In this document: piece by piece, positions 5,484-51,236 of the stretch | Layout: each line of letters starts with the position of its first letter | How positions within the stretch are numbered: the stretch's first letter is position 1 | Assembly: GCF_036321535.1 (NCBI RefSeq) | Contig: NC_087436.1 | Span: forward strand, 4,216,001-4,280,000 | Direction: 5' to 3' | DNA length: 64,000 nucleotides | DNA from: Camelus dromedarius | Taxonomy: Eukaryota | Notes under the pieces: model-generated | What the model saw: the letters and a program-made list of their open reading frames with translations, nothing else | Told to the model about the DNA's origin: nothing | Databases searched by the model: none | Made by a program: the position numbers and the translations under genes

Positions 5484-6963
<1,480 letters not shown>

Positions 6964-15875: not shown

Positions 15876-16292
15876 CTTAAAAACAATTAACTAAATAGCT
15901 TAAAAAGCCACACATGAGTTGTGCTGCCTCTCTGTAATGTGGAGGGAACTTCTGGAATAAGACGTTTTTCTGTAGTAAATGGGACCCCAGAACAGGAAGC
16001 CCATACGGCCCTCCCCTGCCTGGAAGGCCTGGCATTGTGGGGGGCCCACTAGGGACTGCGGGCAATGCAGGACCACAGGAAGGAGAGGATGGGGGCCTGG
16101 AGGGAAGGGAAGGACACACAGCTGGGAATAAGGCCCAGGAGGACAGCAGGACTGCTATAGTGTCTGTACTTTGATTGGAGTCCTGGAGACATCCGCCCTC
16201 CTGCCCCCCAGTGCCATTATCCCACTGCCCAGCCCTCCTTCCCCGTCAGTCCTGTATGCGGGTCCAGTCACTGTCCACCTCCCTCCCACCAG

Positions 16293-17047
16293 CTGCTGCA
16301 TAAACAACTCCTGGACCTGAAGGAGGAGTCGGGTGTGCAGGCACCCACCAGTCACAGTGCAACCCACTTGGACTCAAGTCCTCGTGAGTCTGACGTCAGC
16401 CAAGATGACATGAAGCATGACCAAGGCCCCCAGCTAGGGGTCAGAGATGAAGACAGACAACCAGAGATTGATTCTGAGGAACATATAAGGCGTTATCGAA
16501 CAGACAGTGGCCCGTTCAGGCCCAAACCCTTTCTTCTCTCCAGGACATCAGCGTTTCCCTCCATCCTGGGCTGGACAGCCCCTCTCTCCTCCCCAGGGTC
16601 AAAGGTGCACTGCACCGAGCCTGGGACCCAGGGATGCCTCAGATCTCAGAGAGACCTCTCCTGCTAGGAAGGCCCCAGGACCAAAGGATGTGTCTGGTGA
16701 GGACAAGGAGGAGCCCCCCAGCCTGGACTTTATCTTGGCCTCTCAGAGCTCTGCCCCAGAGCCCTTGAGACTAGTCTGCCCTGGAGGTCGAGGGGCTCCC
16801 CAGGCCCCCTCCCCTCAGAGAATCGGCGTCAGCCCAGCTCCTCCACGAGCTGCCAAGTCTAGGACGTGGGCTCTGTGTGCAGGCCAGGTGTCTGCTGAGA
16901 AGCTGCCCCTGCCCAAGCCTGACCTCGGGATCTCTGGGAGGCCAGCCTGACTCTGGCGCTGGTTCACCCTCACAGCCAGAAAAGAGGAGGTGTGGCCCAC
17001 TTGTTGCAGGGAGGAGGAGGAGGAGGAAGAGGCACTGCAGTCAGTAG
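16293..17047 (+). pseudogene. NUT family member 2 (NUTM2)-like terminal exon, frameshifted and orphan
   Basis: After acceptor ccctcccaccAG (16291-16292): LLHKQLLDLKEE..A.HLDSSP..; then SPPQ..PSLDFILASQ..PQAPSPQRIGVSPAPP.AAKS..AEK; then SQPEKRRCGPLVAGRRRRRKRHCSQ* (TAG 17045-17047), the NUT-family C-terminus. Frameshifts near 16535 and 16948. AATAAA at 17284-17289. Confidence 0.85.
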
Positions 17048-18199
17048 GAAACAGCAGGCCAGCCCTCCAGTGCCAGCCCCCCAGGGGGCCGACAGGGCAG
17101 CTTAGCGGCTCCTCCTCATCCAGTGCTGATCTTGGGTGATGCAGGGGGCAGGGAGGGAGGGCAGGCGGGGAGGGTGGGACCAACAGGGCCATGTTGGAGG
17201 GGAGTGGGGAGTTACAGGGTGGGGGAGGTGGGTCTGGGTGGCTGTGGGTGGGAGCAGCACCTTGGGGGGATGTGTAAAATGTGAATAAAAACAGTTTTGT
17301 TTGGAAATGTTCTCAGGCCACTGTAGTCTTATTCATGTCTACCCTACTCCACAGAGAGGGGTCCTGAGAGGGAGGATGAGGAGGTCTCAGAAGCTATGGA
17401 TCCACAGGTGGCCGACTAGATCTTCCTCCACACTGACACGGGGTCCTCAGATGCTCCTGGGAGTCCCCAACACTCACTGTCCCCAGGAACCCCCGCATTG
17501 TCCTCTTCTCTCAACCCTGACTGGCCACGGGCCTGTGGGGCATCCCATCATCATCTGCATCCCTGAACAAACTAGGGACAGAGAGCTGTTTTTGTGTCTT
17601 TCAGGCCTCTGGACACTCACCAGTTCTCTAGACTGCAGCCTGGAGACAGCCCTGGTCTTTGGGGAGCTTCTCTCTGCTTCCCTGCAGTGGCCGGATGACA
17701 GGCCAGGGCTTCCAGTCTGGGTGTCCTGACCAGAGAGGAAGAGCCTGGGCCTGAGAGACAGGACTTTCTGCCCCTCTGCCCCGTTGCAGAGGGAGCCTCC
17801 TCTAGTCTCCTGGGATTCCTGCAACCTGGGGACTGGGGAGTGGTGCAGGCAGCTCCCTCTTAATCCCAAGGACACAAATGGAATGGGCTGAGAGGAAGTT
17901 CGTGGGGGACCTGTTAAAGGTGTGTAAAAGGGGAATGAAAGTAGGCGCTGCTGTGGGATTTGTGGGATTGCTGTGTGGGAGCATCTTGTCCAGCTGAGGG
18001 TTTCTAAGGTGCTGGGGTTTGAGCGCTGATTTGGGCACTGGTTAGTTTGCATGCATGTGTTTAGTCTGTAAGATTATAATATGTGCACTGTTCTGCATAT
18101 ATATTACACTTCAACTAAAGTCAAAAGTTAAAAAATAAACTTAAAAATTTAAAGTATAACATAAAAAGGAGAAAAGCAGAAAAGGGCAATTATCACAAA

Positions 18200-19220
18200 A
18201 CTGAGGATAGCGGTCACCTCTAGAAGGGGATTTGATAAGATACTTCTAAAGAACTAACAATATTCTATTCTACAATTTGCACAATAATTACATTATTAAT
18301 TTATTTTTTTAAAGGTATGTTTTGCATTTGTTTAAATATGTCAAATTGAAATTAGAAGTGGCAAAAAAATACTCCAATAAATGTAAAAACAAGTAAAATA
18401 AATACCTAGAAATATATATAAATTATCAAGAAGAAATAGAAAATATAAAATCAAGTAACGATTTGTTAAAAAATTTTTGAATCAGTAGTTTAACATGTTC
18501 CCATCAAAACAAACAAAATCCAGGTTCAGACTGCTTTACAAACAAGTTCTACCAAACTTTAAAGGACTCAATCATTCCAATTTTACAGAAACAGAAATAG
18601 TATACAAAAAAAGAAGGAACATCTCCTAACTAATTTTGTAAAGATGGTCTAATTTTGATACCAAAACCAGAGGAGAGCCTGAGAAAGGAAACACCACAGG
18701 ACGACGTCATTCATGAACACAAGGAGACAACCCCGAGCATCTATGAGCAAACCAAAGCCAGGGGCAGATGACAGCGATGGTCCCTCACGACCACGCTGGG
18801 CTTAACCCCAGGAACATAAAACTGATTCAGCATTAGAGAAACCTTTTAATGTTATCTGAAATTTGGAATAGATTAAAGAAGAAAAATCACATGAAAATTT
18901 CCAGAGAAGCAGTGAAAAAGCATTGCAGAAAATCAACAATCATTCAGGATTTTAAAAAACTTTGAAAAACTTGAAAATAAAAAATGAATAAGAAAAACTA
19001 TACTAACACCAAAAGAATGGACAGCCCTTCTCATCCAATTAAAGCTTTACTTTTAACATCAGCAATGCCCACTCTCACCACTGCTCTTAAGACAGGAAAA
19101 GAAAAAAAGTGTAAGTGATGAAAATAAACAAAATTGTCATGATTTTCAGATGATATGCTTGTCCTAAAAGAATTTCTGCACAATTTATTGGAATAAGACT
19201 TTATTACAGAAAAAAAAAAT
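18200..19220 (+). mobile_element. Old degenerate L1 (L1M-type) fragments, mostly ORF2
   Basis: ccaggttcagactgctttacaaacaagttctaccaaactttaaagga, ttgataccaaaaccag, tttcagatgatatg (FADD-like region). Confidence 0.75.
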
Positions 19221-22200
19221 CATGCCCTCCCCTTTCCACTCTCTGTCCTTTTAATCACATTTTGGTTTTCTTCACAGCACCTACGGGTAGCTGAAGCATC
19301 ATGTGTGCAGGACAGTCCACCTTCCCCGCTGAGAGTAAACTCCTGCAAGCACTGGGCCGGGTCTGGTCCCCAGGCTGCTCCAGTGCCCGCACAGTGGCCA
19401 GGGCACAGGGTATTCATGTTTGTTCAATAAGCTAACCTGCAGTCTCATTATGGTTTAAAATATAATCATTTACCATCCCCTCCCCTCAAAACACCCACAC
19501 ATCACTTGCCCACAGCAACTCTACCCCTGTGTACCCAAGAGAAGTGAAAATATATGTCTACCTAAGAACTTAGAGATGAATGTATACTGCAGAATCATTC
19601 ACAACAGACAACAGACAAAAACTGGAGACATTCCAAAAGTCCATAATCCAGTGAAGCCATCCAAGTAATTACTGTTTGATGACAAAAGGCAACATAAGTA
19701 CTTCTCCTGGTAATAACATGGATGAATCTCAAAATACTATATGAAAACACTAGATAAAAAACTTTTTGGAATGATGAAAATGTTCTAAAATGGGACTGTG
19801 GTGATGACTGCACAACTCTGTAAATCTGCAGTGAACTGAACATTTAAATTTTATACTATGTTGATACAGTCGTTTTAAAGTAGAAAACAAGGGACAGCCT
19901 CCTGTTGCTTGCTGTTTGGTCAATTTTTAAAAAACCAGTATGGTATAAAGAGTGGGATGAGCATTTTAAAGGAGTTTGTTAACATGAATTAATGAAGTCC
20001 AAACTGCAAGATGTGGGACCCTGACAGTTAGCAGCAGCTGCAGTCTCAAACTCTCTCCCTAAGCCCGGCCCCTCCAGTCTGCCTTAAAGGGAATTCTCAG
20101 AGTCTGCACTGGACCCCACCACCAGCATCCCCCCAGCAGCCAGGCAGGAGGCTCTGGGAGTACTCGGGCTTGGAAATACAAATCCATCAGTGCCAGCACT
20201 AAATGCAAACTACAGCGAAAAAGTTTGAATTTGTGTAGAAGATTCTGACTGGTTGAAAAAAAAAACTTAACTTTCTGGGTTAGGATGTGCCACCAACTTT
20301 TTTATTTCTCAACCATAGTTTTACATCTTACAACAGATTATGTAATTCTTAAATAGGGGGGACAATCATATTACAGCTTCAGAGTCTCAAAATTATTTTA
20401 TGGGGCATATGTAACAAAAAGAAAAGTATCTGCTAACTCCAGGAACTGCTCAGAGGTGGTTTAATCTTCATTTAATAACGATAAAAAGATTAACCCACTT
20501 TAAAAATAGGTTTGTGCATGAGCCACCTTTATCAGTTTTCCAAAGGCAGAAAAATAGGCAGTCACTTAAAATTAAATGACTTATGAATAACCTCTGAAAA
20601 AAAAGTATCTTAGACCTGTGTTTGTGATAAGTGCTATAACAAAGAGAAATAAAAGGAAACTCTTTAGAAGGAACCTAAAGCCAAGGCCTGACCAAGCCTT
20701 TTTAATCCTCTCTCCAAGCCAAGCATCCACCGACCACGAGCTGCCTCGGGACCTGGTGTTTTTTTCACTGAAGTAGCTGAACACCTAGTCTGTGTACTAG
20801 TGCACACACATACCACTTGCTGAATTAATTAGTAACTGGGAAGCCCAGGTGGAGTTAGCAGCTCTGTCCAGAATGATCTCCTATCAGTGTTTTCACAGAG
20901 TGACGCAGTAATCTATTTCCTTATCAGTCTGTCTCCAACAGGGCCTGCAGCATCCCTCAGGGAGGCCGGGAACGGGACCAGGGCCTGGCAGAGAAGATGC
21001 TCTGACTGTTAAATCTCACCAGGAGAGGGGGCTGCCCTAGACCACACAACTGTGTGACCCAAGTCTAGCAGTCTCACTTCCGCAGACTCTGCTTTGCACT
21101 CCAGGATAATGTCCAAGAGACAGGTGATGGACCCTGGCTCCGCCAGGCCCGCTCACTTCCAGGGAGTGACGACCAGAGCACTAGCCCGAGGCTAAGGGCT
21201 CAGCTCACCTACGTGTTTCACCCAATCCTCCCAACCCTGAGGTGGGTATCGCTACCCTCTCTCTACAGGACAGAAAAACAAGCTCAGGTCACAGATAGGT
21301 GTCCAGAGCCCACACTCTTACCTGCTGTACTGTACAGACTCCCAGCCATGGCCTCAGATAATCTGCTCTGAACTCAGTCAGTGTGTGGTGGGTTCTTGGG
21401 TGTTTACTGTTAGGCTGCATAACTCAGATGTTACATATGTATCCAATATTCAATGAATTGTAAAGAATGCCACCCAGTTTGGCTGCCACACCCACACTGC
21501 CAGAGACAGGAAGGCAGAAGGGCCCTGAAACCAACCCAAAGCCCCTCTCCTGCCTAAAAGACTTTGCCCTCCCCTTCTTTCCTCCCCCCCCCCCCCCAGT
21601 GCCCAACAGCAGGCCTCGGCCCAGCACAAGAAGAGCAGGGGAAGCAGCACCAAGAACTAACCTGGTAAGTCAGAGGTCAGCGGGAGACAGCTCATGACCA
21701 CCCCCACCTCACTGCGCCACCTTAGAGAGGCCCAGCCTTATCAAATGATGCCACCTGGGCCTCCGGTGCTCAGACCAGTGGTGGACACTGGCCCAAGCTG
21801 GATCAGATTCTCTCCCCCAGGAGTCAGAGTGCTCTGAAGACACATACCTCTGGGCAGCTAGGGTCAGCTCTCTTCTGCCAAGTGCATGGGGATGTGGTAA
21901 AAGAGAAGAAAACAGCTGTGCAGAGATGCAGGATGCAAGAAGATTTTGTAAATGTAAAGACGGAGGGGAGTAGCTGCCTTGGTCTAGTTTTCAGTTCCTG
22001 GTTACATCCATACCTGAAGCTTTAACTGCTCTTCCTGTCCCTGCAACACCATGAGAAATATCCCTGGATCTTAATCACAGACTCCCCAATTTCTACAGCC
22101 CATTTTCTACAAGTCGTGCCTGAAATGCTTTACCACCCTTCCCCACCTTTCACCCAGCTAGCCCCACGTCATTCTCCAGGTCCCAGCTTAAACAGTACTT

Positions 22201-25200
22201 CCTCCAGGAATCCCTCCCAGACTACTCTTCAATCCTTTGTTCTACCTTTGATGGGTATAAAAGGGAGCACTCTGCACCTCGTCATATTGAGTAAATGGGA
22301 TTACTTTCCTGTTAGGCTCTAAACACCAAAGTGTAAAAACTACTTCAATCCTACTGCTTAGCACATACGTCAGGTACGCGCTCAATAACGTTACGAAGCG
22401 AATGAAGCTCAAGAAACTGGTGGGGAACATAGGAGGAGTGAGAAGGATAAACACTGATGAACACCGTTCTGATAAAAATGAAGCTGCGTTGACCCTACCT
22501 CCCTCACCCCTTCCAAGTTTCTGGTTCCTCCCTCTTCCATCTCCACAACAGGCCCAAGTTGGTCATGACAATCATCATTTTATACTTTGGTGCCAACACA
22601 TTCAGGAACCCAGGCTGGTGGAAGCACATTTCAAGGTAACTTGCTGTAATAGAGGAAAGTCTACAGTAGTTCAGGAAAAAAAGAATTACATGTTTTGAGG
22701 TCTAGACAAATCTCAGTTCTGCTATACATTTACTGGCTGTGAACCTTAGACAAGGCACCTGAGACCTGGTTTCCTTATCTGTAAGGTTAAAAACAAACAA
22801 ACAAACCTCAAAGATGAGGATGAAAATGACCCTGAAACCATAGCATCTAAGGCAAGCCTGCAACTGTTAGTCAGCTGGTCTGCACCCCACCCCCAGCTCC
22901 TACCAGCCACGGCCGGCTTCAGAGCCCAGAGCCTGCCCTAAGACTGCCCATCTGAGGGACCCTGGAGAACATCTATCCTGCTGGCTTTCCAATGTATGGG
23001 AGCCCCAAGAAGTGAAAGAGAAAAGAAAACAAAAAGGAAGACAAAGCATCTCAGGGTTAGGAGGTGGGTGGGCAGAGCGGGCTGGACACGGGGTGGGGTA
23101 GCTCGAGATGTTTCTTGGGGAATCGGTTGTTTTCTACTTAGTAGGTACATTACTGCGAGCAAAGTAAGAAATAAACTATATATAGTTCCCGGAAAATTCA
23201 ACTTGGCCACTTTTCATAAAAATCTTTTTATTAATGCTTGAGAATTGAGAACATACAAATTAAATTCAGCAGAATGGCATATCAATTACAGCCAATTACA
23301 GCCAACCACCAGGAGTACATTACTAGGGATGTTACTAACATCAAAATGAATTTTGTTTGCATTTTACTTGTGCTCAAAACTGTTCAGAGACTCTGGATTT
23401 TCTGTTGCTCATGTAAGATGGTCTCCTCAAATCTTTGAGCTCCAAAAACCAAACAAGAGGCTTCTTTATTAAAAAGTTACATTAACTGTTAAGCCAGCAC
23501 AACTAGGAATCTGGTCTGGAGCGTCTGTAAAGGATTTATACTACTGCTGGTCCTGCCTTCCAAACAGGTGGTACCAAAACCCAGCAAAGTTCCAGGGAGG
23601 GGTGGGGAGAGTGCTAGAGCCGAGAGTAATAAGGACAAGGTCATGGAGGAGATGAAACTCAGAAGGAGGCAGGACCAGCCCAGGGCCCAGACTTTCTTGA
23701 GAATGGGCTGGAGGGAAACACCACTGGCATCTTAACAGGATGCTCCTCGGGTGCAGGGACTGACTGTGTGGCATGCGCACTGCATGCGGGTCATTTGGCA
23801 CGTCCACCTCCACCACATACACACCGAAGGCCAATAACACCTCCAATCAATGTAACAGCAAAAAGCAAAACAAAACCCACATACATTTTAAAATGCCCCT
23901 GGAGATAGGGAAAAAAATCACACCCACTGTGTGCCCTTAAATAAACAGAAAGAAGAGAGAACAAGCACGGTAGGTAGGAAGTCAAAGAGAGATGAGGGAA
24001 ACACAAAATTTGATGAGGAACCAGCAGAAAAAAGGCATCCTTCAATGACCTTCACCTACCAGGTCAAGTCCCAGCTGCTTAGAAAACAAAGTCCTTCAGA
24101 ACTCAGCCCGGCCCATCCCAGCTGCCTCCCCTCCAGCCCTCTCCCCAAGGTGCCCACCCACACCCTCCCTTCCCAGACAACTCTTGGTTTCCCTGACCGG
24201 ATGTGCCGCGCTCAGACCTCCGTGCCTTGTCATGTGCATTCTCCTCTACCTGGAGTGCACTTCTTAAGGCAAACTCCCAGTCATACATCCACACCCAGCG
24301 CCAAGGTTTGCGAAGCCAGACACAGGCAGCCCCACACCAGCCCAGCCTTTTGTCCCCAAAGCACTCCCCACGGGCCTTCTGTGCTCCCACCCAACTGCAC
24401 CCCACTGTCTGTAGCAGGAGCTACTGAAGGGCAGGCGCCCCTTGAGTCCTCGCAGGGAACTGGCGCTCAATGAATTCTAAGTGAATGACCCTGCATGAAA
24501 GGTTCTTGTAAAAGGCTAACAAAGCAAATCACACAGAAAGCAGACAATAGATATTTTCTACTATTGAAAGCATGTATTTTCTAAACTCTGATCTTTGGTT
24601 GAGTATCACTCAGGAACCAGACAGAGATGCTCTACCACTTCCTAGCTTGGTATCTGTGGGCAAATGAAGTAACCTCGCTGTGTCTCAAATTTCCACTTAG
24701 TGAAAGGAAACATCCCTGCAGTGTGGGTAAGAGGACTAATTGACATGCTTAAAAAAAAAAAAAAAAGAGGAAGTGTGCACTAAATGGCAGTTCTGACTAG
24801 CCTGCCGCAATCACAGACACCTTAACAGGACTGGATACTCTACCAGGAATGTGAGTACAACGAAATTTTGGTTAAAACTATGTTTTTAGGAGAGCTGAAA
24901 GTCAACAAATCCAACAGCTTGTCCTCCAGCTGCGCTGTGCTCTCTACAGTTCTCAGTACAGATCCCTAGTGACCACTATGTCCCCCGGCTCCGCTGACAA
25001 TGTGGACTCCCGGGTCTCTGGTCTCTGACCACACCTCCTCCTCTAGCTTGCCCATCATGGACACCTGAAGTCAGGCATTCCTTCGGCTCAGCTCACACAT
25101 TTTTTCTCATCTTGTGCCCTCTCAAGGCTTCAATTAAGATCTCTATGGAGATGACCCCACGACTTCTCAGTCACAGTCAGAAAACATTTCAAGCTGAATT

Positions 25201-26421
25201 TATCCAACATACTTACCTTAATTAGGTCATGAAGCATACAGCTTCAGCTTCTCTCATACCATTTTTTTTTCCTTTTCTCCTGAGTCTTATACATCACACC
25301 AGTCCTCAGCTTCCTCTTCTTTGCCCACCTCTTAAAACTACTTGCTTGTCACGGTTCCTTCTTTGCTCTTTCTGTTCTGTCTCCCTGGTTCTTAAACTCT
25401 CTGGGATAATGAATGCTTTGAAAATCTACTAAATGCTATGGATTATTTACTAAAAAGATAAACACACAGAATATATGCATGCAATTTCACCTAACCAATG
25501 ACCTCAAATAAGAATCTGTGTTCATCCACACGAGACTACCACTTACACAAATTTTCATCTAGATGCTATATCCCTTTCATTTTCAGGATGCTTCTAGATA
25601 TAGCCTAAAGGGCCTCATAAACTAGCATCATAAACTTAACGAGTCCAAACCAGAATGCAGTATTTCTCCTTAACAAACCTCCTCTGCCTACAGTATTCCT
25701 TCCACCATGCCCCCAAGCTAGAAGCCTTGGAATTAACAACCTTCCTCATACCACACAACCACGTCCTGTCTCAGGATCTCTCCCAAATCCAAATCCCACC
25801 TCTTCAGCCTCTTACCCTGTAAGACCTCATCATCCTTTGCTTCATCCCATACCTTCCATGATGAAAAGTCCACCACTCCTCTGATAGCCCCTTACTGACT
25901 CTAACATCTCCATTTCCCATGCCACTACATCACTTCACCTCTAGAAGGTCACACAGTCTGATTCTTCACCTCAGTTTTCTCATTTCCACCAGTGTTTATC
26001 TAGATTCTCCAAATATCTCAAAACTGATCGTGTGCCTGCCTCTTTTCAAATACTCTGATGCTTCTCCATTGCACAAATATAAAATTGAACTCTGTTCTGC
26101 CTACAGAGTCCTCCACAATTTGCCACCTAATTCCTTTTCCAGGATTGGATTCCACAGCTTAGACTGTCACTTGCACCTGTCTTCATATCAAAACCACACC
26201 CACTGGTAAAGGGCTCAATTCAAACTCCACTCTTTATATCCTCTATGGAACGATTAGGAAAGGACTTTGCACAGAAAAGGCAAATTCCTAATGAAAAGGT
26301 TCAGAAAATGAAAAAAAAAATCTTCCTTAAAATCGTTAAGTCTTTCGAGAAACATTAAGCTTTAAAAAATATCAGCTCCAGAAGTCTCCATCAGCACAAA
26401 ATACCACAGGTAGCTGGTTCT

Positions 26422-26459
<38 letters not shown>

Positions 26460-26799
26460 ACCCTCCCCGCATTCCATGAACTTTTCTGAGGGATCTGAAG
26501 CCAGACAAGGGAGCCTGCATGCGGTTCTGCAAGAACTCCATCAAGGCTGCATACATACTAAGCACTAAAGCAGTAACTGGAAAAGTCCACAGTCACGGTG
26601 CTAAAGCGTCTGAGTGCCCTTATGCTAGTACTGGAGCTCACGCGGGGCACAAGGGGAAAAAAGTCAAATTAGGCCCAACTCCAAATGACCCCTTAAGAAA
26701 TCATGACAGGAATACCAACTCAACCTTCCTGAAACGGGAACAGTACCAAAGTCCACTTTAAAACTTCAAGATTGAAACATTTCACACCAACACTGGTGC

Positions 26800-27770
26800 C
26801 GCTCATGCTTAGAAAGGCTGCGCAGGAGAGCAGCCCTGGCAGCACAGAAGGGGCTGAAGCAAAGCCGGCAGCGGAAAACGCAGGCGACGGGGGCAAACGA
26901 GATGATGATTTCGGGGCTGTGCACACACGCCGCTGCCGACCGCTTTCCAGACCACGGCCCCGCCGCGAGTATCTGAAGGACTTCGCAACTTCAGAGTCCG
27001 ACGTCAAGGGAAGGCCGCGAGGGGAGCGCCCGGGGATTGGGGCCCTGTTACCGTTCTGGGGGTCCCTGAGTGTCCGGGTCCCGGCCTCCACCTCCCCGAC
27101 TTCCCAATCCCCCACTCCCCGCGCCCAGCGACGGCCGGCCCGGGAAGTGCCGCGAGCATCGCCCCAGCGCGAGCCGCCCGGCCCCGCCCGAGACCCCCAG
27201 TGCGCGGACGGCGGGGCAGCCCTGCTGGGGTCGGGGCCGGGCTCGGGGTTGGGGTCGCGGGTCCGGGGGCCGACGCCGCAGCTGCGCCCGCCGAGGCCGG
27301 ACGGGGGGCCGCGAGGGCGGGCGCTGGCGGCACGCGGGGCGCGGACACTCACCACACCACGCCGGGGGAGCCCTCGCCGGTGTAGCAGCTTGCTGGAGCG
27401 CCGCCCACGTCGAACACATGCCCGCGGACCATCTCGGGGCCGCGCCGCTGCCGCCGCCGCGTTGAACAAGAAGCTCCGCGGCCGCCGCTCGGCCAGCCCC
27501 GCGCCTCCCGAAGGGACTGCGCTGCCGCCGCTGCTGCCGCTGCAGCTGGCTCGGGGGAGAAGGGCCGGCGCCGCCCGGGAGAACCGCAGAACCGCAGAAC
27601 CGCAGAACCGCCAGCTGCTCCGACAGCCTGCCGCCTGACTGCCTGACAAGCTGACCTTCGGGGGGGCAGAGGGAGGGGCGGGGCGGGGCGGAGGAGGGCG
27701 CCGGGGCGGGGCCTGGAAGCGTGCGCGCGGATTGGCTCTCGTGGCCCCGGGGGCGGGTCTGGTGTCCCCA
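26800..27770. promoter_or_regulatory. CpG island / MAPK1-derived promoter oriented to the minus strand
   Basis: Very high GC and CpG density. Several GGGCGG boxes (27676-27757) and a CCAAT box on the minus strand (attgg at 27731-27735) upstream of the exon 1 homolog. Confidence 0.85.
27353..27465 (-). pseudogene. MAPK1: Degenerate copy of MAPK1 (ERK2) coding exon 1, followed by intron sequence
   Basis: Reads (GCG)n..GPEMVRGHVFDVG......YTGEGSPGVV|gtgagtgtcc, versus ERK2 [40 protein letters not shown]. First ATG absent, internal ATG at 27432-27430 retained, donor GT at 27352-27351. No further MAPK1 exons recognised in the window. Confidence 0.9.
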
Positions 27771-27797
27771 TAGATTTGTAGCATTTTTGCCTATCAG

Positions 27798-29274
<1,477 letters not shown>

Positions 29275-36639: not shown

Positions 36640-37785
36640 CTAGGAAAGAGAGGGGAGTCAGTGTGGGCGGCTGGGCCAGCGCTGAGAAGACCAGGTAGCA
36701 AGGCCGGGCTCATGAGTGTGTGGCATCCAGGCTCACTGAGGTGGACCTCTTTGAAAGTCCAAACACCAGTGTCCCCCTGCAGCCACAGTCATGCAGGCAG
36801 GCACTGGCATCACACTTCAGGAAGCTCCTGACTGACCCCCAGGATGGCTGTGGATTGAAATCTACAACACGTGGACACTTGCACCCAGGGAGGCCACTGT
36901 GGTCCAGGACAAGGCCGAGAAGGGACAGCTGCCCCAACAGGGCCCAGGAGGACTGGCCTGTGAGTGGAGCCTGGTCAGGTCAAGCCACTTCAGACCCCAG
37001 TTCTTGCAAAACCCTGTCCTGCAGCAACACATCCCCACCTGGATCCTCCCCCTTTCCATTCATTTAGGCCTTTGGCTTTCTCTCAACCTCTTGAGAGAAA
37101 AGAGAGATGCTCTTTCTGAGCAGCCTCAGAAAATGCTCGCCCCCAGGCCTGGCGGGGGCAGCCTGCATTGCTCAGGAAGTGGGAGGGGGTCCCCAGAAAT
37201 CTGCTGGGAATCACTGGAGTCCCAAAATACTGTCAGGGCAGGACCATCTGGTTGAAAATCCTCTCATGTCATCACCCAAAGGGAGGGTCTCACCCTTGGG
37301 CATGGGGGGAGTGGAGCGGGGCCACAGCCATGCCTGCCGCTCTTCCGCTCACCTGTCCACACGCACGTCAAGCATCCAGTGCAGCCTCTGCCCCCGGGCA
37401 TGGGGGTGAAAGGACAAGGCCCCTTCCCCATGGCACTTCTGTCACTAAGCCAGCTAGCCTGCTGTGGTCAGATGTGACGTGTAGAAATAAGCCATGGAAG
37501 GGACAGGACAGGCAGGGTGGGGGCACAAAGACTTCCTGAGCTGAGACTCTAAACAGGAAACAACCTAACTGTCTGATGCAGGAGCAGAGGGACCGGTAAG
37601 TGCAGGCAAGGAGAAGAGGGATGGGCCAGATGGCAGATGCGGGGAGCGGGCTGTGGCGCTGGGAAGGTGGATGGCTCTCGTCTGACTGCTCGCTTTGATG
37701 TTCTCAGTGAAATAAGAAGCAAGACCTCTAGCTGAGAGGGAGGGTGGGGGAAGCAGTGGCTTGAAGGAGAGAGAGGGGTACATCG

Positions 37786-38240
37786 CGTGGCCAGCCGAAA
37801 ATAACCCTCAGAGATGCCCATCTCTAGAGCCTGTGGTTATGTCACCTTATGTGGCAAAGGGACTCTGCAGATGTGGTGGGGTTGGGCATCTTGAAGTAGG
37901 AAGCTCATCTTGGATTACCTGGGTGGGCCCAAGGTAGTCCCAAGGGTCCTCATGGGGAAGGAGGGAGGTGGGAGTCCAGAGTCACATGAGGAGATGTGAT
38001 GACAGAAGCAGAGTTTGGAGTGATGTGCTTTGAGGCTGGAGGAAGGGGCCATGAACCAAGGAATGTGGGCAGCCCCTAAAAAGCCAGAAGAAAGGACACA
38101 TTCTCCCCTAGAGCCTCCAGAAGGAATGTGACTGGCCAGCACCTATGCTTTAGACCTTTGACCACCAGAAACCTAAGATAACAAATTACTGTCATTTTAA
38201 CCACCCACTTTGAGGTGGTTTGTCTCAGCAGCCCCAAGAA
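37786..38240 (+). mobile_element. MaLR LTR (MLT1D/E-like), intronic
   Basis: tatgtcaccttatgtggcaaagggactctgcagatgtg..gggccatgaaccaaggaatgtgggcagcc..ttctcccctagagcctccagaaggaa. Confidence 0.8.
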
Positions 38241-39589
38241 GTCATACATGGGGCTCCTTGGAGACAGGGAATGTGTTGTCATCCTCTCAGCTCCTCCCCC
38301 TGTGGTCCCTGCCTGGAGTGCCCTCGGCCTCCCCACCGTGTACCCACTCCTAGTTGCTCAAGGTCAGAAGAAGGCCTGGTCCTTGTCCACTGCAGGCCTC
38401 GAGGATTCACGCAGATGAGCCATGTGGTTGCCAATATTATGATGGGTTCTGGGCCAGTCTAGAGTAGATGAGAAGGGCTCCAATAGCCTCCTGGCCCTTA
38501 GGGAGCTCTCAGAAGGCAGAGGGAACCCCAACACTAGTATTTCCCATGAGAAGTGAGCTGTGGTTTGCAGTGCTGTAAAGACAGAGCCAACTGTGTGTGT
38601 GTGTGTGCATGCACAGACACACCTGCACGTGTGTGTTGAGTGGGGCCAGGCAGTGGAATCCACCTTGAGAGGAAGGTCTAAGACAGGCCCAGAACAGGTA
38701 CAATTAAGATAGAGGTGGGCAGACCAGGCCAGGAGAATGAAAGCCAGCACTTGTCAAGCACCTACTGAGTGCCAGACACAGCTCTCAAATTGTTATAGGA
38801 ACCTTATTAAGTGGAGGCTGTTAGCGACCCCATTTCATGGGTGAGGAAACTGAGCTGAGGCCACAATCCCCGTAAACAACAGATTAATGCCTGGAACCAG
38901 GTCTGTCCTGCCCCACAGTCTGAGTGCTGAGTGCCCCTGTGGCCCTTCTCTCCTCAGACCTGTTTCTGGGGGCCCTGTGCAGGGGGAGGGACACTTTAGG
39001 GGAGAGAAGAGAGCCCCCTGTTGGAGGGTGGGGGCCAGAGCAGGTGACATGGCAGAAGATGAATCTAGATGGAATCTCTCAGATGGGCTTGGGTGACTGA
39101 AAGGCTGAGAGAGGCAGGAGGGGGTCATCTGCTGGGACTCCTGGGTGTCCAGCTCAGTGGTGTCCTCAAGCTGGGGGGAGGGGGACTAGAGGTCAAGGGC
39201 ACTGTGCATGTCCGGTGGGCAAGCAAAGGGCTCCAGCCCTGCACTCAATGGGCATGACCTCTGCAGGGGAGGGCAGGTGGAGAACAAGGCTGGAAGTGGG
39301 GTCCAGAGTGACAGCCAGATGGGGACTTGGGAGGATGTGGGCTGAGCCCTTTGTTTCACCTCTGGGTGCAGCTGACTCTGTGAGAAGGACGGGCCAGGCC
39401 AGACAGTCAGAAAGTCCACACCATTGATTAGGGCCTGGGAACTGGGAAACCTGGGTCCACCTCCTACCAAGGGGGCAGGTGGCCAAGCTTCCCCCCTCGG
39501 GCTCAGCAGCTCACTGGGCCGTCATGGAACCTGCCATCAGCGCGGCCCTCCCATGGGCCAGGCGCACCTCACCCCTCCTGTGCGGGTCT

Positions 39590-39875
39590 CCTGGGGCTCC
39601 ACAGCATATCACCCCAAACTGAGTGACTCTGCAAACAACAGAAATGTGTCCCCTCACAGTTCCAGGAGCCAGAAGTCTGACATCGAGCATCTCTGTGTCT
39701 GTCTCTGTTCCTATAAGGACACAAGTCATTGGATTCAGGGCCCACGGTAAATTCAGAATGGTGTCGTCTTGAGATTCTTATCTAGTCACATCTGCAAAGC
39801 CTCTATTCCCAATTAAGGTCATATTCTGAGATTCCAAGTGGATACAAATTTAGGGGACACTATCCAACCCACTAC
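39590..39875 (-). mobile_element. MaLR LTR fragment (MLT1-type), intronic
   Basis: tcacagttccaggagccagaagtctga..tataaggacacaagtcattggatt..acatctgcaaag..aaggtcatattctgag. Confidence 0.75.
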
Positions 39876-41260
39876 ACCATCCTTTCCACAACGCCATGAA
39901 GGAGGCCTCAGAGTCCCACACTGCAAATGAGGACACAGGCTCAGGGGGTGAAAAGACCGCCAGAGGTCACAGGGCAGGGACACGTGGCAGAGCAGTGTCT
40001 CTAACTCGAGCCCAACACTCTCCCCTCCACCCCACGGTGCCATCTGTGTGAAAGATGTGATATCTGCTTGGGAGGCTGGGCCCTGCGGGGGAGGCAGTGG
40101 GTTTGGAGTCAGGTTGTACTGCCTTATATTAGGGTACAGCTTTCCCTCTCCGGGCCTGTCTGCCCACTTACAACATGGGGCATGACAAAGAGCAGAAAGA
40201 GAGCTCCACACTCCATATACCCAACAGCAGCCTCATATCTGGAATATAGAAAAATATACAAATATACCAAGAGCCCCTCAAGGAAAAGACAGACAACCCA
40301 AGAGGAAGATGAGAGGGGAAAGAACTGGGAGGGAAGCTTTACAGAAGAAGAGATCCAATGACAATAAACATACGAAAATACATTTAATTTATCATCAGGA
40401 AAATGAAGATTAAAACCACAATGAGACATCAAAATGAGAAAAGATGGAAAGTGCCAAGTGTGGGCGAGGACAGAGTCTCACCCACGGCTGGAACGGGGGC
40501 GTGTGGTGAGCAGTTTGGGGGCATCTGGTAGCATCTGCGAGAGCTGAACACACACATACCTTTTAATCCAACAGTTCTCCTCATGGGCTTGTATGAAATA
40601 GACTATGAAACATTTGGAAGCGAAATGAAACAGAAAGCTTGGGAACTGCTAGAATACCCATCAAAAGCAGAACGGACCACAGAACTCAGTGCCTCCAGCA
40701 GAGTCCTGGGAGGCGATGAGGATGAACAAACTCACTACAGGTGGCAGCAGGGATGCAGCTCACACACAGAAAGCGAGGCCACAGACTGACAACTGGAAAT
40801 AAATTCTACTTACAGAAAACCCATGATCTAAACTGAGGGGTTGCAAGTGAAGGTGGCGGTTTCCCCTGAGTGCTGGTGATGGGAAAGGGACACGAGTGGG
40901 GCCCCGGGGTGTTGGTCAAATGTTGTGTCACTATGTGAAGATTCGTCCACCCCACACCTATGAAAACACTATGAATATACTTTTTTGTAAGTATGTTACA
41001 CCTCAATCAAAACTGTAAAATATGCCTCAAAAACAGACGCTGTCTGAGGTCCTGCCAGTAAGGCTCTCAGGGACAATGGGCTTAGGAAGGGGCAGCTGGG
41101 GGGACGCTTCCAAGGGCTGGAGCCCGGGAAGACACAGAGAGGGAGGAAGCAGGACATCCCGGGGGTCTCCACAAGGAGAGCAGAGGCAACACCCCCACCC
41201 CCCCCAGGAAGCTGAGGCCCTGAAAACACGCAAGGGAGGAACAGAAATGGCCTCACTCAC

Positions 41261-41427
41261 ACGGCAGATGGCCTTTCCTGTCGAGAAGTCCCCAGCACAC
41301 AGCATCTCATCGTGCACAGAGTAGTTCCTGCCTTGGCCAACTCTTTGTTCATATAACATATTGCAGAACTTGTTCTCAATGAGGCCCACCTTTCCCTCCT
41401 GGAGACGGAAGGGCTCGAGCAGAGGCC
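41261..41427 (-). CDS. PRSS47-like serine protease, exon 4
   Basis: Acceptor cctccttgtcctcgcAG; PLLEPFRLQEGKVGLIENKFCNMLY..MLCAGDFSTGKAICR; donor GTgagt; 167 nt, phase 1 to 0. Confidence 0.93.
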
Positions 41428-41719
41428 CTGCGAGGACAAGGAGGACACGAGTGAAGTGCACTGCAGCTCAGCTCTGGGCCGCTCCACGCTCCCCGCTCCT
41501 CTGCCCTGCTCGCCGCTGCGCCCTGAGCCCGGGGTTGTCTCGGCACAGCTGCACTGCAGCGCTGTTCCAGTTCTACCTCTGCCTAAGAAGCCCCCTCCTG
41601 TTTGCTGAACTCCTCCAAACTCATCCTATTCCCTCCACCTCTCTCATGGCAACAGACCACACCTCTTTTATTCCGCAAATCCCACTGGCACATACCCTAC
41701 ACGGGTGCTCAGCAACCAT

Positions 41720-42050
41720 CCACCAGCCTACCTGCCCTTTCACAAACCATCCTATCCATTCTCCACTTGTCTATCATTAACCTTTCCTTCCACCCACCAA
41801 TCCTCCCTCCGTCTACCTAGCTCTCCTTTTGTCCTATTCACCCACTCACCCTTCCATCCATTTGCCCATCCACCCATCTTTTGACCCATCTCTCCATTCT
41901 CCCCTCCACCTACTGATGTGTCCACTCACTCCCATCTGTCTGCCCACCATCCTCTCACCTACGCACCCCCATCTTCCCTTCCCCTCACTCATCCTTCCCC
42001 TCCCCAATCGATCCTCTCATCTGCTCACTTACTTATTCATCTGTCCTTGT
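41720..42050 (+). repeat. Degenerate (CCAT/CCAC)n pyrimidine-rich low-complexity tract
   Basis: Repeated catcc/caccc units and almost no G. Confidence 0.75.
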
Positions 42051-43686
42051 GTTTAGTGTCTTTTAGACACTAGTGATACAGGGAACATACTCAGTTGGGG
42101 GAGACAGGGAAGTGAAGTGAATAGTAGAATGATTTTAGATCTAGTAAGTGGTGTAAAGGCAACAGGGAGCTGTGGTGTTAGGGGTTGTCTGTTTTAGCTC
42201 ATGTGATCCAGTAAAACTTCTCAGAGGAGGAGCTGAATTGTTCATGTAAAGAAATGAGACCTGCCAAGATGAGCAAGTCGTGCCCAGGAGAGCAGGCAGA
42301 GCAAGCGGGGCCGGGAGCCCAGCCACAGCGGCCGGCAGCCCGAGGCAGGTGGGGGTGCAGCACATTCACAGCAGGAAGGAGGCCGGTGGCTGGGCAGGCA
42401 TGAGTGAGGGACGCAGCAGGAGATAAGCACAGAGGGATGGAGGCCGTTATGCAGAGCCCAGGTAGGGCATCTGGACTTTTTTCAAAGCATAAGTGAGAAG
42501 GCACTGAGGGTAGTGAGCAGGGGACTGGCACTACCTCTGCTCTGAAGCACACATCCAGCTGTGTGGGGACTAAAGCAGAGCACACAGGGTGGAGCTGGGA
42601 GACCGGTCTGCAGGTGCAGGCAAGAAGTGACGGGCTCCAGGACCTGGGTGCAGCAGCAGAGCACCTGCCAGGGGCCAGGCCCTGGGCACAGGCTGGGATA
42701 TTAAACCAGCAAGACAGGGTCCCTGCCCTCAAGGAGAAAGCAGTCTCTGTGTGTATCTGCGGGTGTGAGTGTGGTGTGTTGTGTCCGTGTGAGTAATTCC
42801 TCTGTGTGTGTGTGAGTGTGTGTGTGGGGTGTGGGAATACTGGGGACCTGGTTGTCCTATGACAGGGAGACTAACTGACACACTAGCAGGTGCATCCTAC
42901 CCAGTGAAGATAGGGTCCATCCAAAATGCCTGCAGCACCTCTGCTGAGAAACACTGTACCAAATAATTACAAATATATATGCTTCTTCCACCTAATTTTG
43001 CACCATAAGCATTTCCCCAAACCATAAACATTCATTTCTTTAATAAAGACTTTTGCTCATAAGTCTTTGCCTACACTTCTCCTTTTTCAATCCTAAAAAA
43101 CACAAACTTTTTCCCGTATTATTCAGTTCACAGAATAAGCCTACAAAGTAGATAGTTGACCTGGGTGGGGAGAAGAGCACAGTGAGCTCAGAGAGGTCAA
43201 ACACTCTCAAGTCATAATTATTCTAACTTGATCCTGCAGGCTCAAAGGTCAGAGGTCAGAGTTCATAAATGTGTTTTCTCTCCACTTTTCCCAAGTTCCT
43301 CCCATGGCAATGGGAAATGGGGGTGTTTGTCAGTGGCCTGGAATGGACCAGGCCCCAACCATGACTTCTGAGTTGAATCAAGTCATCTGACATCCATGGT
43401 TGATTAAAATCCTGGAGTCAAGCCTTAGAAAGACTCCAAGAACCCAATTCTTGAGTCCAAAAGTCAAAGATTCCCAGACTTGCAGAGATCTGTACTCAGG
43501 GAGCACTGAAACTTTAGGATCACACACTTTCAGAACTAGAACTAGACTAGCCCGGTCCTCTGGAAACGAGGCACAGCTAGCCAAGGTCCAGCGGCCACTT
43601 TGCCTGGGGACCCCTCTGTCCTCCTCCCCTCCCTGCCCCTCCTCCCTGCCCTCATCCACCCTCCGGGTTCTCCCGTGCCCTCTTAC

Positions 43687-43964
43687 TTTCCTCACTGAGC
43701 ATCCCCCAGCCCGTTATCCAGCAGGACGAGTTACTGGGCAGCTGCATGCCAGGAGCTGGGAGGCAGGCGGGGATGATGTAGGAGGTGAAGTTCACAGGAA
43801 AGAGCAGCTGCAACATGGCTATGTCATTCCCAAAGGGATGAAATTTATCAAAGTCTGGGTACATGATAATCCGGCTCACGGGTATCTTCTGGGTGTGCCT
43901 GGTGTGCTGGTACAGCTGGGTGTTTCCTAACAAAACCCGGTAGTTCTCCAGGACGTGAGATTTT
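43687..43964 (-). CDS. PRSS47-like serine protease, exon 3 (catalytic Asp)
   Basis: Acceptor ccttcctcctccAG; KSHVLENYRVLLG..FGNDIAMLQL..IIPACLP..CWITGWGMLSEE; donor GTaaga; 278 nt, phase 2 to 1. Confidence 0.95.
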
Positions 43965-45397: not shown

Positions 45398-45581
45398 TTG
45401 AGAAAGCAGTGGGCAGCAGAAACCAGCCAGCGGGAGTTGATGAGGGTGGCTCCACAGACATGCGTGCCCTGGTACAGCAGGCTGGCTTGCCATGGCCACT
45501 GGCCTGCCACCACGTCCCGGCCACCGTAGATCTTCCCTATCACCTTGGGTTTCCCGCATACAGTGGAGACGCCCCTGCCTC
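45398..45581 (-). CDS. PRSS47-like serine protease, exon 2 (activation site, catalytic His)
   Basis: Acceptor tgtgtctctgtcat[49 protein letters not shown]; donor GTgagt; 184 nt, phase 1 to 2. Confidence 0.93.
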
Positions 45582-46532: not shown

Positions 46533-46743
46533 CTGCGGCCCCCGGAGCCAACGGCTGCGCGTCAGGGGTCAGAGCGCCGCCGTCCTCCGGCCGCCCCGCG
46601 CCTGGGGCCCGGCCGGGCGCCACCGAGGCCCTGGCGGAGGACCCCCGCAGCTCTAGGGTGGCCGTTGGCGGCAGCAGCAGCAGCAGCCAGAGGAGGGCTG
46701 CAGGCTGGCCTCGGCCTTCGGGGAGCCACGCCCCCGTGCCCAT
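46533..46743 (-). CDS. PRSS47-like serine protease, probable exon 1 (signal peptide and pro-region)
   Basis: ATG at 46743; MGTGAWLPEGRGQPAALLWLLLLLPP.. hydrophobic signal; donor cagGTgcgt; 211 nt, phase 1, compatible with exon 2. Sits in a small CpG-rich patch. Confidence 0.75.
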
Positions 46744-46911
46744 TGTCAAGGTTGCTGACCCCCGCCTGACCCCTGTCTGACCCCCCACCTGACCCTGCCC
46801 TGACCCAGCCCTGAGTGGCCCCTGAGCCTGGGCCCTGACCCTGTCCGAGTCCATCCCTGATCCCATTCTGCCCTTATTAACTTTAAAGAGCTCTACTGAG
46901 TTGTTATTTAT

Positions 46912-50150: not shown

Positions 50151-50159
50151 AAATTTTTT

Positions 50160-51205: not shown

Positions 51206-51236
<31 letters not shown>

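What the first reader, a model, noticed from the sequence alone, without database searches (positions are those of the whole stretch)
26800..27770. Relocated MAPK1/ERK2 promoter and exon 1: coding decayed, promoter and splice donor preserved, a possible co-opted first exon
Seen: the exon 1 homolog has lost the first ATG and carries many substitutions (GEGAYG loop is now [13 protein letters not shown] scrambled by small deletions totalling 3 nt). Yet the CpG island is still CpG-dense, GC boxes and CCAAT persist, the internal ATG (gagATGg, ERK2 Met13) is open to an intact GTGAGT donor, and the phase-2 junction is unchanged. Intron sequence follows, so this is a DNA-level duplicate rather than a retrocopy. 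Established: methylated, silent copies tend to lose CpG. Inference: the island has stayed unmethylated in the germ line and may drive a lineage-specific lncRNA or chimeric transcript starting MVRGHVFDVG..., transcribed leftwards.
Basis: partly seen in the sequence, partly recalled or inferred. Interest (0 to 1): 0.8.

Follow-up and report, generated by a model that had tools for sequence, protein, structure and literature searches.

The report
Amplified MAPK1 promoter–first-exon duplicon copy
This is one of at least 46 scattered copies of the start of the MAPK1 (ERK2) gene (core promoter, first exon, part of intron 1) in a mammalian genome; it no longer codes for kinase, but the family keeps its CpG island, CCAAT box and splice donor, so it probably still starts a spliced non-coding RNA.

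Summary
Window 27760-17988 (minus strand) is a DNA-level copy of the MAPK1 5' end: about 300 bp before the ATG, a decayed exon 1, and about 9.4 kb of intron 1. The intact parent exon 1 lies at C31:2.756 Mb and matches ERK2 at 37 of 37 residues.

It is not a lone relocated copy. At least 46 copies lie on 17 contigs, mostly near contig ends. They share one upstream breakpoint and shared derived changes, so they have a single origin.

In all deep clades the module sits tail-to-tail 4-15 kb beyond the 3' end of a NUTM2-type gene. In the window that partner is a dead fragment.

CpG o/e is 0.82-1.07 in 41 of 42 copies, against 0.20-0.34 in the adjoining ex-intron. CpG transitions are 1.8x other G/C transitions in the island and 6.7x in the ex-intron. 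This supports germline hypomethylation.

The most conserved elements of the module are the splice donor (0 changes in 10 columns, about 21 expected; present in 41 of 42) and the CCAAT box (40 of 42). No reading frame is conserved.

Best reading: a captured promoter and non-coding first exon. Transcription could not be tested because read laying failed.

The parts
26800..27770 (-). CpG island of the MAPK1-derived module (the span given in the finding)
   Evidence: GC 0.71 and CpG o/e 0.92. 41 genome matches including the window itself, at 70-87% identity.
27731..27735 (-). CCAAT box of the captured MAPK1 core promoter. Homology to the parent starts about 25 nt upstream, at about 27760.
   Evidence: Present in 40 of 42 copies and in the parent. 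Among the three most conserved 6-mers, kept in 24 of 26 non-redundant copies. The upstream breakpoint is shared by 11 of the 12 loci compared.
27353..27640 (-). Exon 1 homologue: former 5' UTR plus decayed coding part. The 5' end (TSS) is inferred, not mapped.
   Evidence: Alignment to parent exon 1. The last 60 exon columns average 1.47 changes per column, against 2.13 for the whole module.
27430..27432 (-). ATG homologous to the internal Met of ERK2. It opens a 26-codon frame that runs to the donor.
   Evidence: This ATG is kept only in the window's clade (7 of 8 members), and 8 of the 26 residues vary among them.
27347..27352 (-). 5' splice donor GTGAGT. The exon ends at 27353.
   Evidence: Present in 41 of 42 copies. 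The 10-mer GGTGAGTGTC has 0 parsimony changes against a mean of 21.3 per 10 columns, the lowest of all windows.
27580..27611 (-). Four exact copies of an 8-nt unit (GCGGTTCT on the minus strand) in the former 5' UTR
   Evidence: It lies in the least conserved stretch of the module, with majority-base conservation 0.48.
17988..26375 (-). Remainder of the MAPK1 intron 1-derived block. About 1.15 kb of parent sequence is missing at 26376.
   Evidence: 81.5% identity to C31:2753966-2748256. 83% identity to C31:2746770-2747562 and C31:2741599-2742816. CpG o/e 0.26.
26377..27346 (-). Start of the former intron 1, still inside the CpG island
15979..18000 (+). NUTM2-type duplicon abutting the MAPK1 block tail-to-tail. 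It carries a broken C-terminal NUT exon at 16161-16950.
   Evidence: Pfam NUT PF12881 at E 1.6e-16 and 2.5e-31 in two frames. Four in-frame stops. Nearest named relatives are NUT family member 2F/2G-like. The segment is multi-copy.
27801..29215 (-). Insertion just upstream of the promoter: 3' part of a RALGAPB processed pseudogene, with reading frames spanning 27920-29274
   Evidence: 92-93% identity to mammalian RALGAPB. The frames run on without introns but are frameshifted. The segment is absent from the copies on C5, C32, C20 and C29 and present at C31:1.317 Mb.

Best explanation
The element is one member of an old, amplified duplicon made from the 5' end of MAPK1.

Origin. One ancestral segmental duplication copied MAPK1 from just upstream of its CCAAT box (about 300 bp before the ATG), through exon 1, and at least 14 kb into intron 1. 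This piece became joined tail-to-tail to the 3' end of a NUTM2-type gene. The composite then spread to at least 46 copies, mostly near contig ends and partly as 3.8-kb tandem arrays.

Current state. The kinase coding sequence decayed at once and no reading frame is maintained. The captured core promoter stays a germline-unmethylated CpG island. Its CCAAT box and the first 5' splice site are under purifying selection across the family.

Most likely mechanism (inferred). The module still acts as an NF-Y/Sp1-type CpG-island promoter. It starts a non-coding RNA whose first exon ends at 27353. This RNA is spliced or at least bound by U1 at the conserved donor, and runs leftwards through the former intron towards, and antisense to, the NUTM2-type sequence.

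The window copy. It keeps all these parts. Its NUTM2 partner is a dead fragment, so its own transcript is probably a by-product and not a regulator.

Shown: origin, copy number, architecture, CpG behaviour, site-specific conservation. Inferred: transcription, splicing, antisense role.
For: Origin and parent:
- The parent exon 1 is intact at C31:2755965 and matches ERK2 at 37 of 37 residues, E 4e-19.
- The window is collinear with the parent from 27758 to 17988.

Copy number and single origin:
- 42 copies were aligned and 4 more were found later, giving 46 on 17 contigs.
- Of 12 loci compared with the parent, 11 end their upstream homology at parent 2756373-2756383 and the C10 locus ends at 2756335.
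- The family is monophyletic against the parent, behind a long stem branch with shared derived changes.

Link to NUTM2-type genes:
- 17 NUTM2-type 3' ends lie convergent to a module at 4-15 kb. They are on C8 (10 loci), C10 (2), C15 (2), C31, C29 and in the window.

Hypomethylation:
- Island CpG o/e is 0.82-1.07 in 41 of 42 copies; the parent is 1.05.
- The adjoining ex-intron has CpG o/e 0.20-0.34.
- CpG transitions per site are 1.8x non-CpG G/C transitions in the island and 6.7x in the ex-intron.

Site-specific conservation:
- The most conserved 6-, 9- and 13-mers among 26 non-redundant copies are the donor (25 of 26); CCAAT follows at 24 of 26. The mean 6-mer is kept in 10.4 of 26.
- The donor 10-mer has 0 changes where about 21 are expected. 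For CpG-free 10-mers the mean is 24.6.
- CCAAT is present in 40 of 42 copies and the donor in 41 of 42.
Against: - No transcript evidence was obtained. 
- No conserved downstream exon was found in the ex-intron block 23600-26375. The lowest 40-nt score was 7.5 against a mean of 25.7 and sd 12.
- Sequence downstream of the module differs between clades, so a common acceptor is not evident.
- Conservation elsewhere in the module is fairly flat, at 0.8-0.9.
- The island diverges faster than the ex-intron: 70% against 81.5% identity to the parent. Transversions are as frequent as transitions. Both are unexplained.
- Copies that lost CCAAT (L025, L039) or the donor (L006) still have CpG o/e 0.82-1.00, so the island state does not visibly depend on these sites.
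- The copy set was gathered by similarity to a CpG-rich query. Decayed copies may be under-sampled: only 40 of 53 candidates were scored in each search.
Confidence: 0.58

Rival explanations
1. Inert passenger. The MAPK1 5' fragment was co-amplified only because it lies next to NUTM2-type genes in duplication-prone regions near chromosome ends. Its CpG island stays unmethylated because of its sequence alone, or through GC-biased gene conversion at an open island. The conserved donor and CCAAT box then reflect low local mutability or survivorship of recognisable copies, not any use of a transcript.
For: - The window's NUT partner is a pseudogene with four in-frame stops.
- No common downstream exon was found.
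- Copies lacking CCAAT or the donor keep a high CpG o/e.
- The donor and CCAAT motifs are CpG-free.
- Only 40 of 53 candidates were scored in each search.
- No database protein carries the exon.
Against: - CpG-free 10-mers in the module average 24.6 changes, yet the donor has 0 and is the unique minimum.
- The two best-kept sites are exactly the two that a promoter plus first exon needs.
- Constraint persists along a tree of about 2.1 changes per site.
Confidence: 0.27
2. Chimeric protein-coding first exon. The exon supplies a start codon and an N-terminal peptide (MVRGHVFDVG... in the window) to a lineage-specific protein.
For: In the window's clade, 7 of 8 copies keep the ATG 80 nt before the donor in phase 2.
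Against: - 13 of 42 copies have no open ATG, and phases 0, 1 and 2 all occur.
- There is no 3-base periodicity of change: 1.47, 1.73 and 1.30 changes per column by codon position.
- 8 of the 26 residues vary within the young clade.
- No protein in 5.8 billion sequences matched at E up to 10.
Confidence: 0.05
3. Assembly artefact, or the only MAPK1 locus with sequence errors.
For: None was found. The region is a mosaic of duplications, and such regions are hard to assemble.
Against: - An intact exon 1 with its own promoter and intron lies at C31:2.756 Mb.
- The copies differ from each other by 13-30% and carry clade-specific deletions and insertions. That pattern means real, old paralogues.
Confidence: 0.01

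Closest known systems
Promoters captured by segmental duplication in primate core-duplicon families: LRRC37 promoters from BPTF and DND1 (PMC3371713, abstract read); NBPF promoter from EVI5 (PMC3429928, passages read, citing Vandepoele 2009, which I did not read)
   Same: The promoter region of an unrelated, broadly expressed gene was copied at DNA level into a duplication-prone region. It then spread with a multi-copy, testis-type gene family.
   Different: Here the captured promoter points towards the 3' end of the family gene (convergent). It therefore cannot serve as that gene's sense promoter. Activity has not been shown. The host is a non-primate mammal, and the copy number of the captured piece is at least 46.
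Human NUTM2A-AS1 and NUTM2B-AS1/LOC642361, non-coding RNAs at NUTM2 genes
   Same: PMC11236329 (passages read) describes LOC642361/NUTM2B-AS1 as bidirectionally transcribed long non-coding RNAs with a CGG/CCG repeat in overlapping non-coding exons, and its Figure 3 legend places exon 1 at that repeat. That their exon 1 is a GC-rich island lying beyond the 3' end of NUTM2B, antisense to it, is my recall only. The module here is GC-rich, carries GCG/GGC runs, and lies convergent to NUTM2-type genes.
   Different: Homology is not shown. No paper found links these loci to MAPK1. The two published human flanking primers match the module no better than shuffled primers. The human sequence itself could not be compared.
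Ordinary partial gene duplicates (truncated pseudogenes) in pericentromeric or subtelomeric duplication mosaics
   Same: The copy holds only the promoter, exon 1 and part of intron 1. The coding sequence has decayed. It lies among fragments of other genes: NUTM2-type, a RALGAPB retrocopy, LINEs.
   Different: Typical silent fragments lose their CpGs. Here 41 of 42 copies keep CpG o/e of 0.82 or more after up to 30% divergence, and the donor and CCAAT box are selectively kept.

Membership tests
Functional MAPK1/ERK2 gene copy | Intact exon 1 coding sequence (start codon, GEGAYG glycine loop) followed by the kinase exons | tested here: not met
   ATG1 is deleted, GEGAYG has become GEGSPG, and the family shares a 2-nt frameshift. 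The MAPK1 homology ends about 14 kb into intron 1, where it meets the NUTM2-type duplicon.
DNA-level segmental duplicate, as opposed to a retrocopy | Promoter and intron sequence are copied with the exon, and a parent locus exists elsewhere | tested here: met
   The window is collinear with C31:2756377-2741599, including about 9.4 kb of intron 1. The parent exon 1 is intact.
CpG island | Length over 200 bp, GC over 0.5, CpG observed/expected over 0.6 (criteria recalled) | tested here: met
   1091 nt, GC 0.708, o/e 0.92. The same criteria are met in all 42 copies, the lowest being 0.64.
Germline-hypomethylated island | No excess of CpG transitions compared with flanking methylated DNA | tested here: met
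   The CpG to non-CpG G/C transition ratio is 1.8 in the island and 6.7 in the ex-intron. Parsimony change ratios are 1.25 and 3.9. This is indirect evidence; no methylation data were used.
Captured promoter or first exon of a duplicon gene family (LRRC37 or NBPF type) | The promoter is derived from an unrelated gene by segmental duplication | tested here: met
Captured promoter or first exon of a duplicon gene family (LRRC37 or NBPF type) | The captured promoter drives the family gene in sense, and transcripts are shown | tested here: not met
   The orientation is convergent with the NUTM2-type gene in the window and at 16 other loci. Transcripts could not be examined.
NUTM2x-AS1-type antisense lncRNA locus | Lies beyond the 3' end of a NUTM2 gene and points back into it | tested here: met
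   17 NUTM2-type 3' ends have a convergent module at 4-15 kb.
NUTM2x-AS1-type antisense lncRNA locus | Sequence homology to the human NUTM2B-AS1/LOC642361 exon 1 region | tested here: inconclusive
   Only two published primers (19 and 23 nt) were available. Their best matches were no better than shuffled primers, and no primer pair was found in the window, the parent or 6 other loci. This is a weak test at this level of divergence.
Spliced first exon | A consensus 5' splice site maintained by selection | tested here: met
   G|GTGAGTGTC has 0 changes in 10 columns, the lowest in the module, and is present in 41 of 42 copies.
Spliced first exon | An observed exon-exon junction | not testable with these tools

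The most novel reading that the evidence does not exclude
The MAPK1-derived module may be the ancestral promoter and first exon of the antisense non-coding RNAs that accompany NUTM2 genes across placental mammals. These would include human NUTM2A-AS1 and NUTM2B-AS1/LOC642361. In that case the GC-rich, CGG/GCG-bearing first exon whose repeat expands in oculopharyngeal myopathy with leukoencephalopathy would descend from the 5' UTR and poly-alanine start of ERK2. The NUTM2 expansion would then have carried a housekeeping-kinase promoter with it for tens of millions of years under selection.
Probability: 0.12. Interest if true: 0.8.

Novelty: new member of a known kind. Interest (0 to 1): 0.55.

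Why it matters
The finding shows a housekeeping promoter outliving its gene. A 1-kb piece of the ERK2 gene start has been copied at least 46 times, has lost its coding role, and still keeps the marks of an active promoter and first exon. These marks are an unmethylated-type CpG island, a CCAAT box and a 5' splice site.

The family works as a natural replicate experiment. It can show which promoter-proximal elements selection keeps when only transcription matters, and which elements keep a CpG island free of methylation.

If the transcripts run antisense into NUTM2-type genes, the family would be a case of a regulatory RNA born by promoter capture. If the same module underlies the human NUTM2 antisense RNAs, it would give an evolutionary origin for a disease-linked CGG-repeat locus.

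For annotation, the practical message is that these copies are neither MAPK1 paralogues nor MAPK1-like coding genes.

Tried and rejected
1. Read laying. No depth, strand or junction data exist. The listing was never laid, so it cannot separate RNA from carried-over DNA. In it, RNA-labelled runs X1, X2, X4 and X6 of one study hold 0.27-0.49 of the sampled words, and X13 and X14 hold 0.11-0.12.

2. More parent intron and flanks. The lower end of the MAPK1 block therefore rests on search hits.

3. Human link. Searches for NUTM2B-AS1 or LOC642361 together with MAPK1, and for NUTM2 with MAPK1 and 'segmental duplication', found nothing relevant. Passages of PMC10351660, PMC12987736 (plus its held supplements) and PMC13023157 gave no usable sequence. 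Figures and some supplements were not visible. Primers from PMC11236329 did not match beyond chance.

4. Coding reading. It was rejected.

5. Conserved downstream exon in 23600-26375: none stood out.

6. My first recall of the retrocopy as RALGAPA was wrong; it is RALGAPB. The protein atlas gave no usable hit for it.

7. Pfam scans of flanking frames gave nothing for the module. Rfam found only a tRNA-like hit. The bacterial promoter and terminator scan is irrelevant here. AATAAA spacing was not informative.

8. Earlier findings of this scan: four look-ups returned nothing.

9. The search with window 37001-57000 scored only LINE copies.

Full report
**What is at the site**

On the minus strand of window 27760-27347 lie, in order:
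- a CCAAT box (27735-27731) and GC boxes;
- a GC-rich former 5' UTR;
- a decayed homologue of MAPK1 exon 1;
- a GTGAGT donor (27352-27347), followed by intron-like sequence.

The frame from ATG 27432 reads MVRGHVFDVGGAPASCYTGEGSPGVV and ends in phase 2 at 27353. The span has GC 0.71 and CpG o/e 0.92.

**The parent gene**

A degenerate pattern for the ERK glycine loop hit the 2.3-Gb genome once, at C31:2755965-2755987. There the exon reads [38 protein letters not shown] followed by GTGAGT. It matches solved ERK2 chains at 37 of 37 residues (E 4e-19); MAPK3 matches at only 5e-10. So an intact MAPK1 exon 1 exists elsewhere, and the window copy is not the sole locus.

The window is collinear with that locus in four blocks:

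| Window | Parent (C31) | Identity |
|---|---|---|
| 27758-26377 | 2756377-2755114 | 70% |
| 26375-20483 | 2753966-2748256 | 81.5% |
| 19200-20000 | 2746770-2747562 | 83% |
| 17988-19206 | 2741599-2742816 | 83% |

The copy therefore holds about 300 bp upstream of the ATG, exon 1 and about 9.4 kb of intron 1. It is a DNA-level duplicate. The 27-residue peptide alone is not significant against ERK2 (E about 0.9). The case rests on the DNA.

**Copy number and origin**

- Window 26800-27770 has 41 matches in the genome, counting itself, at 70-87% identity. Only 40 of 53 candidates were scored.
- Two more copies appeared with a longer query, and four more with a C8-type query.
- The total is at least 46 copies on 17 contigs: C1, C2, C4, C5, C7, C8, C10, C14, C15, C20, C21, C23, C27, C29, C31, C32 and C36.
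- Most lie within a few Mb of a contig end. C10 carries a tandem array with a period of about 3.83 kb at 8-24 kb from its start.
- None of the 42 aligned copies has the parental exon. All share derived changes, including a 2-nt deletion in the PRYTNLS segment.
- Of 12 loci compared with the parent, 11 end their upstream homology at parent 2756373-2756383. The C10 locus ends at 2756335.
- A FastTree tree rooted on the parent places the family behind one long stem branch.

This is one origin followed by spread. The window belongs to a young clade with copies on C31 (two), C5 (two), C32, C29 and C20. Ex-intron identity is about 81% to the parent and 83-91% among clades. By my inference from typical mammalian rates, which I recall and did not compute, that means an age of tens of millions of years.

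**Surroundings**

- Window 16161-16950 on the plus strand is a broken C-terminal exon of a NUT-family gene. Pfam PF12881 matches at E 2.5e-31 and 1.6e-16 in two frames. There are four in-frame stops.
- Its nearest named relatives are NUT family member 2F/2G-like proteins of laurasiatherian mammals.
- The segment 15979-18000 is itself multi-copy.
- A genome scan with the NUT model, combined with the module positions, shows 17 NUTM2-type 3' ends with a MAPK1 module 4-15 kb beyond them in convergent orientation. They lie on C8 (10 loci), C10 (2), C15 (2), C31, C29 and in the window.
- The C15 and C10 loci carry complete-looking NUT genes in mirror pairs.
- A separate complete NUT gene at C5:28.85 Mb, probably NUTM1, has no module nearby.
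- The pairing occurs in all deep clades, so the fusion predates the spread.

Just upstream of the window's promoter, 27801-29215 is an insertion: the 3' part of a RALGAPB processed pseudogene (92-93% identity). It is shared only with the copy at C31:1.317 Mb.

**Is the island kept?**

| Measure | Island (module) | Adjoining ex-intron |
|---|---|---|
| CpG o/e | 0.82-1.07 in 41 of 42 copies (one at 0.64; parent 1.05) | 0.20-0.34 in 11 sequences |
| CpG vs non-CpG columns, parsimony change ratio | 1.25 | 3.9 |
| CpG vs non-CpG G/C transitions per site (sister pairs polarised by an outgroup copy) | 0.040 vs 0.022, ratio 1.8 | 0.148 vs 0.022, ratio 6.7 |

This is what a germline-unmethylated island looks like.

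Two observations remain unexplained. The island diverges faster than the ex-intron (70% against 81.5% for the same copy). Transversions are as common as transitions in it. Slippage in GC-rich runs, alignment error, transcription- or recombination-linked mutation, and GC-biased conversion are all possible causes.

**Is anything selected?**

- Among 26 copies left after merging those at least 97% alike, conservation is fairly flat at 0.8-0.9.
- The best-kept 6-, 9- and 13-mers of about 1040 columns are the splice donor (25 of 26). The CCAAT box follows at 24 of 26. The mean 6-mer is kept in 10.4 of 26.
- On the tree, G|GTGAGTGTC has 0 changes in 10 columns. The mean is 21.3 for all 10-column windows and 24.6 for CpG-free ones, and the donor is the unique minimum.
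- The next-best windows lie in the last 60 nt of the exon, which average 1.47 changes per column against 2.13 overall.
- The donor is present in 41 of 42 copies and CCAAT in 40 of 42. The two copies lacking CCAAT are truncated at that point.

These are exactly the two elements that a promoter with a spliced first exon needs.

**Coding**

Coding is not kept.
- 13 of 42 copies have no ATG open to the donor, and phases 0, 1 and 2 all occur.
- Change shows no 3-base periodicity.
- Within the window's clade, 8 of the 26 residues vary.
- The 'unchanged phase 2' results from a clade-specific 1-nt deletion on top of the family-wide 2-nt deletion.
- A 60-residue in-frame query found no protein at E up to 10.

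**What could not be shown**

- Read laying failed, so transcription, strand, start site and junctions are untested.
- RNA-labelled runs from one study hold up to 0.49 of the sampled words of window 17801-27800. Most of that stretch is ex-intron. The signal fits either a long unspliced RNA or carried-over DNA.
- No conserved downstream exon stands out, and downstream sequence differs between clades.
- Copies without CCAAT or without the donor still have high CpG o/e. The copy set is also biased towards recognisable, CpG-rich members. A passenger or survivorship reading therefore stays open.

**Comparison with what is known**

The closest known kind is promoter capture by segmental duplication:
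- LRRC37 promoters came from BPTF and DND1 (PMC3371713, abstract read).
- The NBPF promoter came from EVI5 (PMC3429928, passages read).

The difference here is the convergent orientation to the family gene, which suggests an antisense non-coding RNA and not a new sense promoter.

That layout recalls human NUTM2A-AS1 and NUTM2B-AS1/LOC642361. PMC11236329 (passages read) describes the latter as bidirectionally transcribed non-coding RNAs with a CGG/CCG repeat in their overlapping exons. Their position relative to NUTM2B is my recall only. No paper found links them to MAPK1, and two published human primers do not match the module beyond chance. The link is an untested lead.

**Verdict**

The element is a new member of a known kind: a captured promoter and first exon in a segmental-duplication family. 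What is unusual is the number of copies, the age of the family, and the clean signal of selection on the donor and the CCAAT box. Interest is moderate. It would be high if the human NUTM2 antisense RNAs prove to be the same module.

Noticed in passing
window 27801-29215 (frames 27920-29274, minus strand): The 3' part of a RALGAPB processed pseudogene sits about 65 bp upstream of the CCAAT box. It has frameshifts, its own stop at 27920 and an AATAAA at 27831-27836. It is shared only with the C31:1.317 Mb copy, so it is a recent insertion into one sublineage.
   Followed up: yes
window 15979-18000, and G000 C8:8.86-9.82 Mb, C8:15.3-15.8 Mb, C10:0.03-0.17 Mb, C15:9.52 and 10.23 Mb, C36:0.43 Mb: A NUTM2-type gene family has at least 17 loci. 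Some look complete and lie in mirror pairs (C15, C10). Many on C8 hold only the last four or five exons. The window's copy is a fragment with four stops.
   Followed up: partly
G000 C10:8117-24441 (L052, L053) and C31:1313294-1317971 (L046): The MAPK1 module forms tandem arrays, with a unit of about 3.83 kb on C10 made of about 1 kb of module plus LINE fragments. Five near-identical units lie at the very start of contig C10. The structure resembles a macrosatellite built around a CpG island.
   Followed up: partly
window 5494-6650: A CpG-rich piece is 87-91% identical to C31:5878710-5881362, the same chromosome as MAPK1. It has a weak, sub-threshold Rhomboid-domain hit on the minus strand (E 0.003). 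It is probably another gene fragment moved into this mosaic.
   Followed up: no
window 43652-45750 (minus strand): Two frames match the Pfam Trypsin family (E 1.6e-15 and 9.9e-13). They look like exons of a trypsin-like serine protease gene inside the GC-rich stretch at 35-47 kb.
   Followed up: no
window 26377-27760 compared with 20483-26375: The island part of the duplicon is 70% identical to the parent, while the adjoining ex-intron is 81.5%. Transversions are as frequent as transitions in the island. The cause is unknown.
   Followed up: partly
window 26425-26458 and 26376: A run of 34 A lies next to the point where 1.15 kb of parental intron (C31:2753966-2755114) is missing in the window's clade. 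Other clades have different deletions (C31:2754411-2755555). The module edges seem to be rearrangement-prone.
   Followed up: partly
L040 (G000 C8:8873594-8874523): In this copy the GCG/GGC tract before the former start codon has grown into repeated GCGGCGGCGAC units. The tract is unstable within the family.
   Followed up: no
window 3657-3728 (minus strand): A tRNA-like Rfam hit just above threshold (30.7 bits against 29). By inference it is most likely a tRNA-derived SINE.
   Followed up: no
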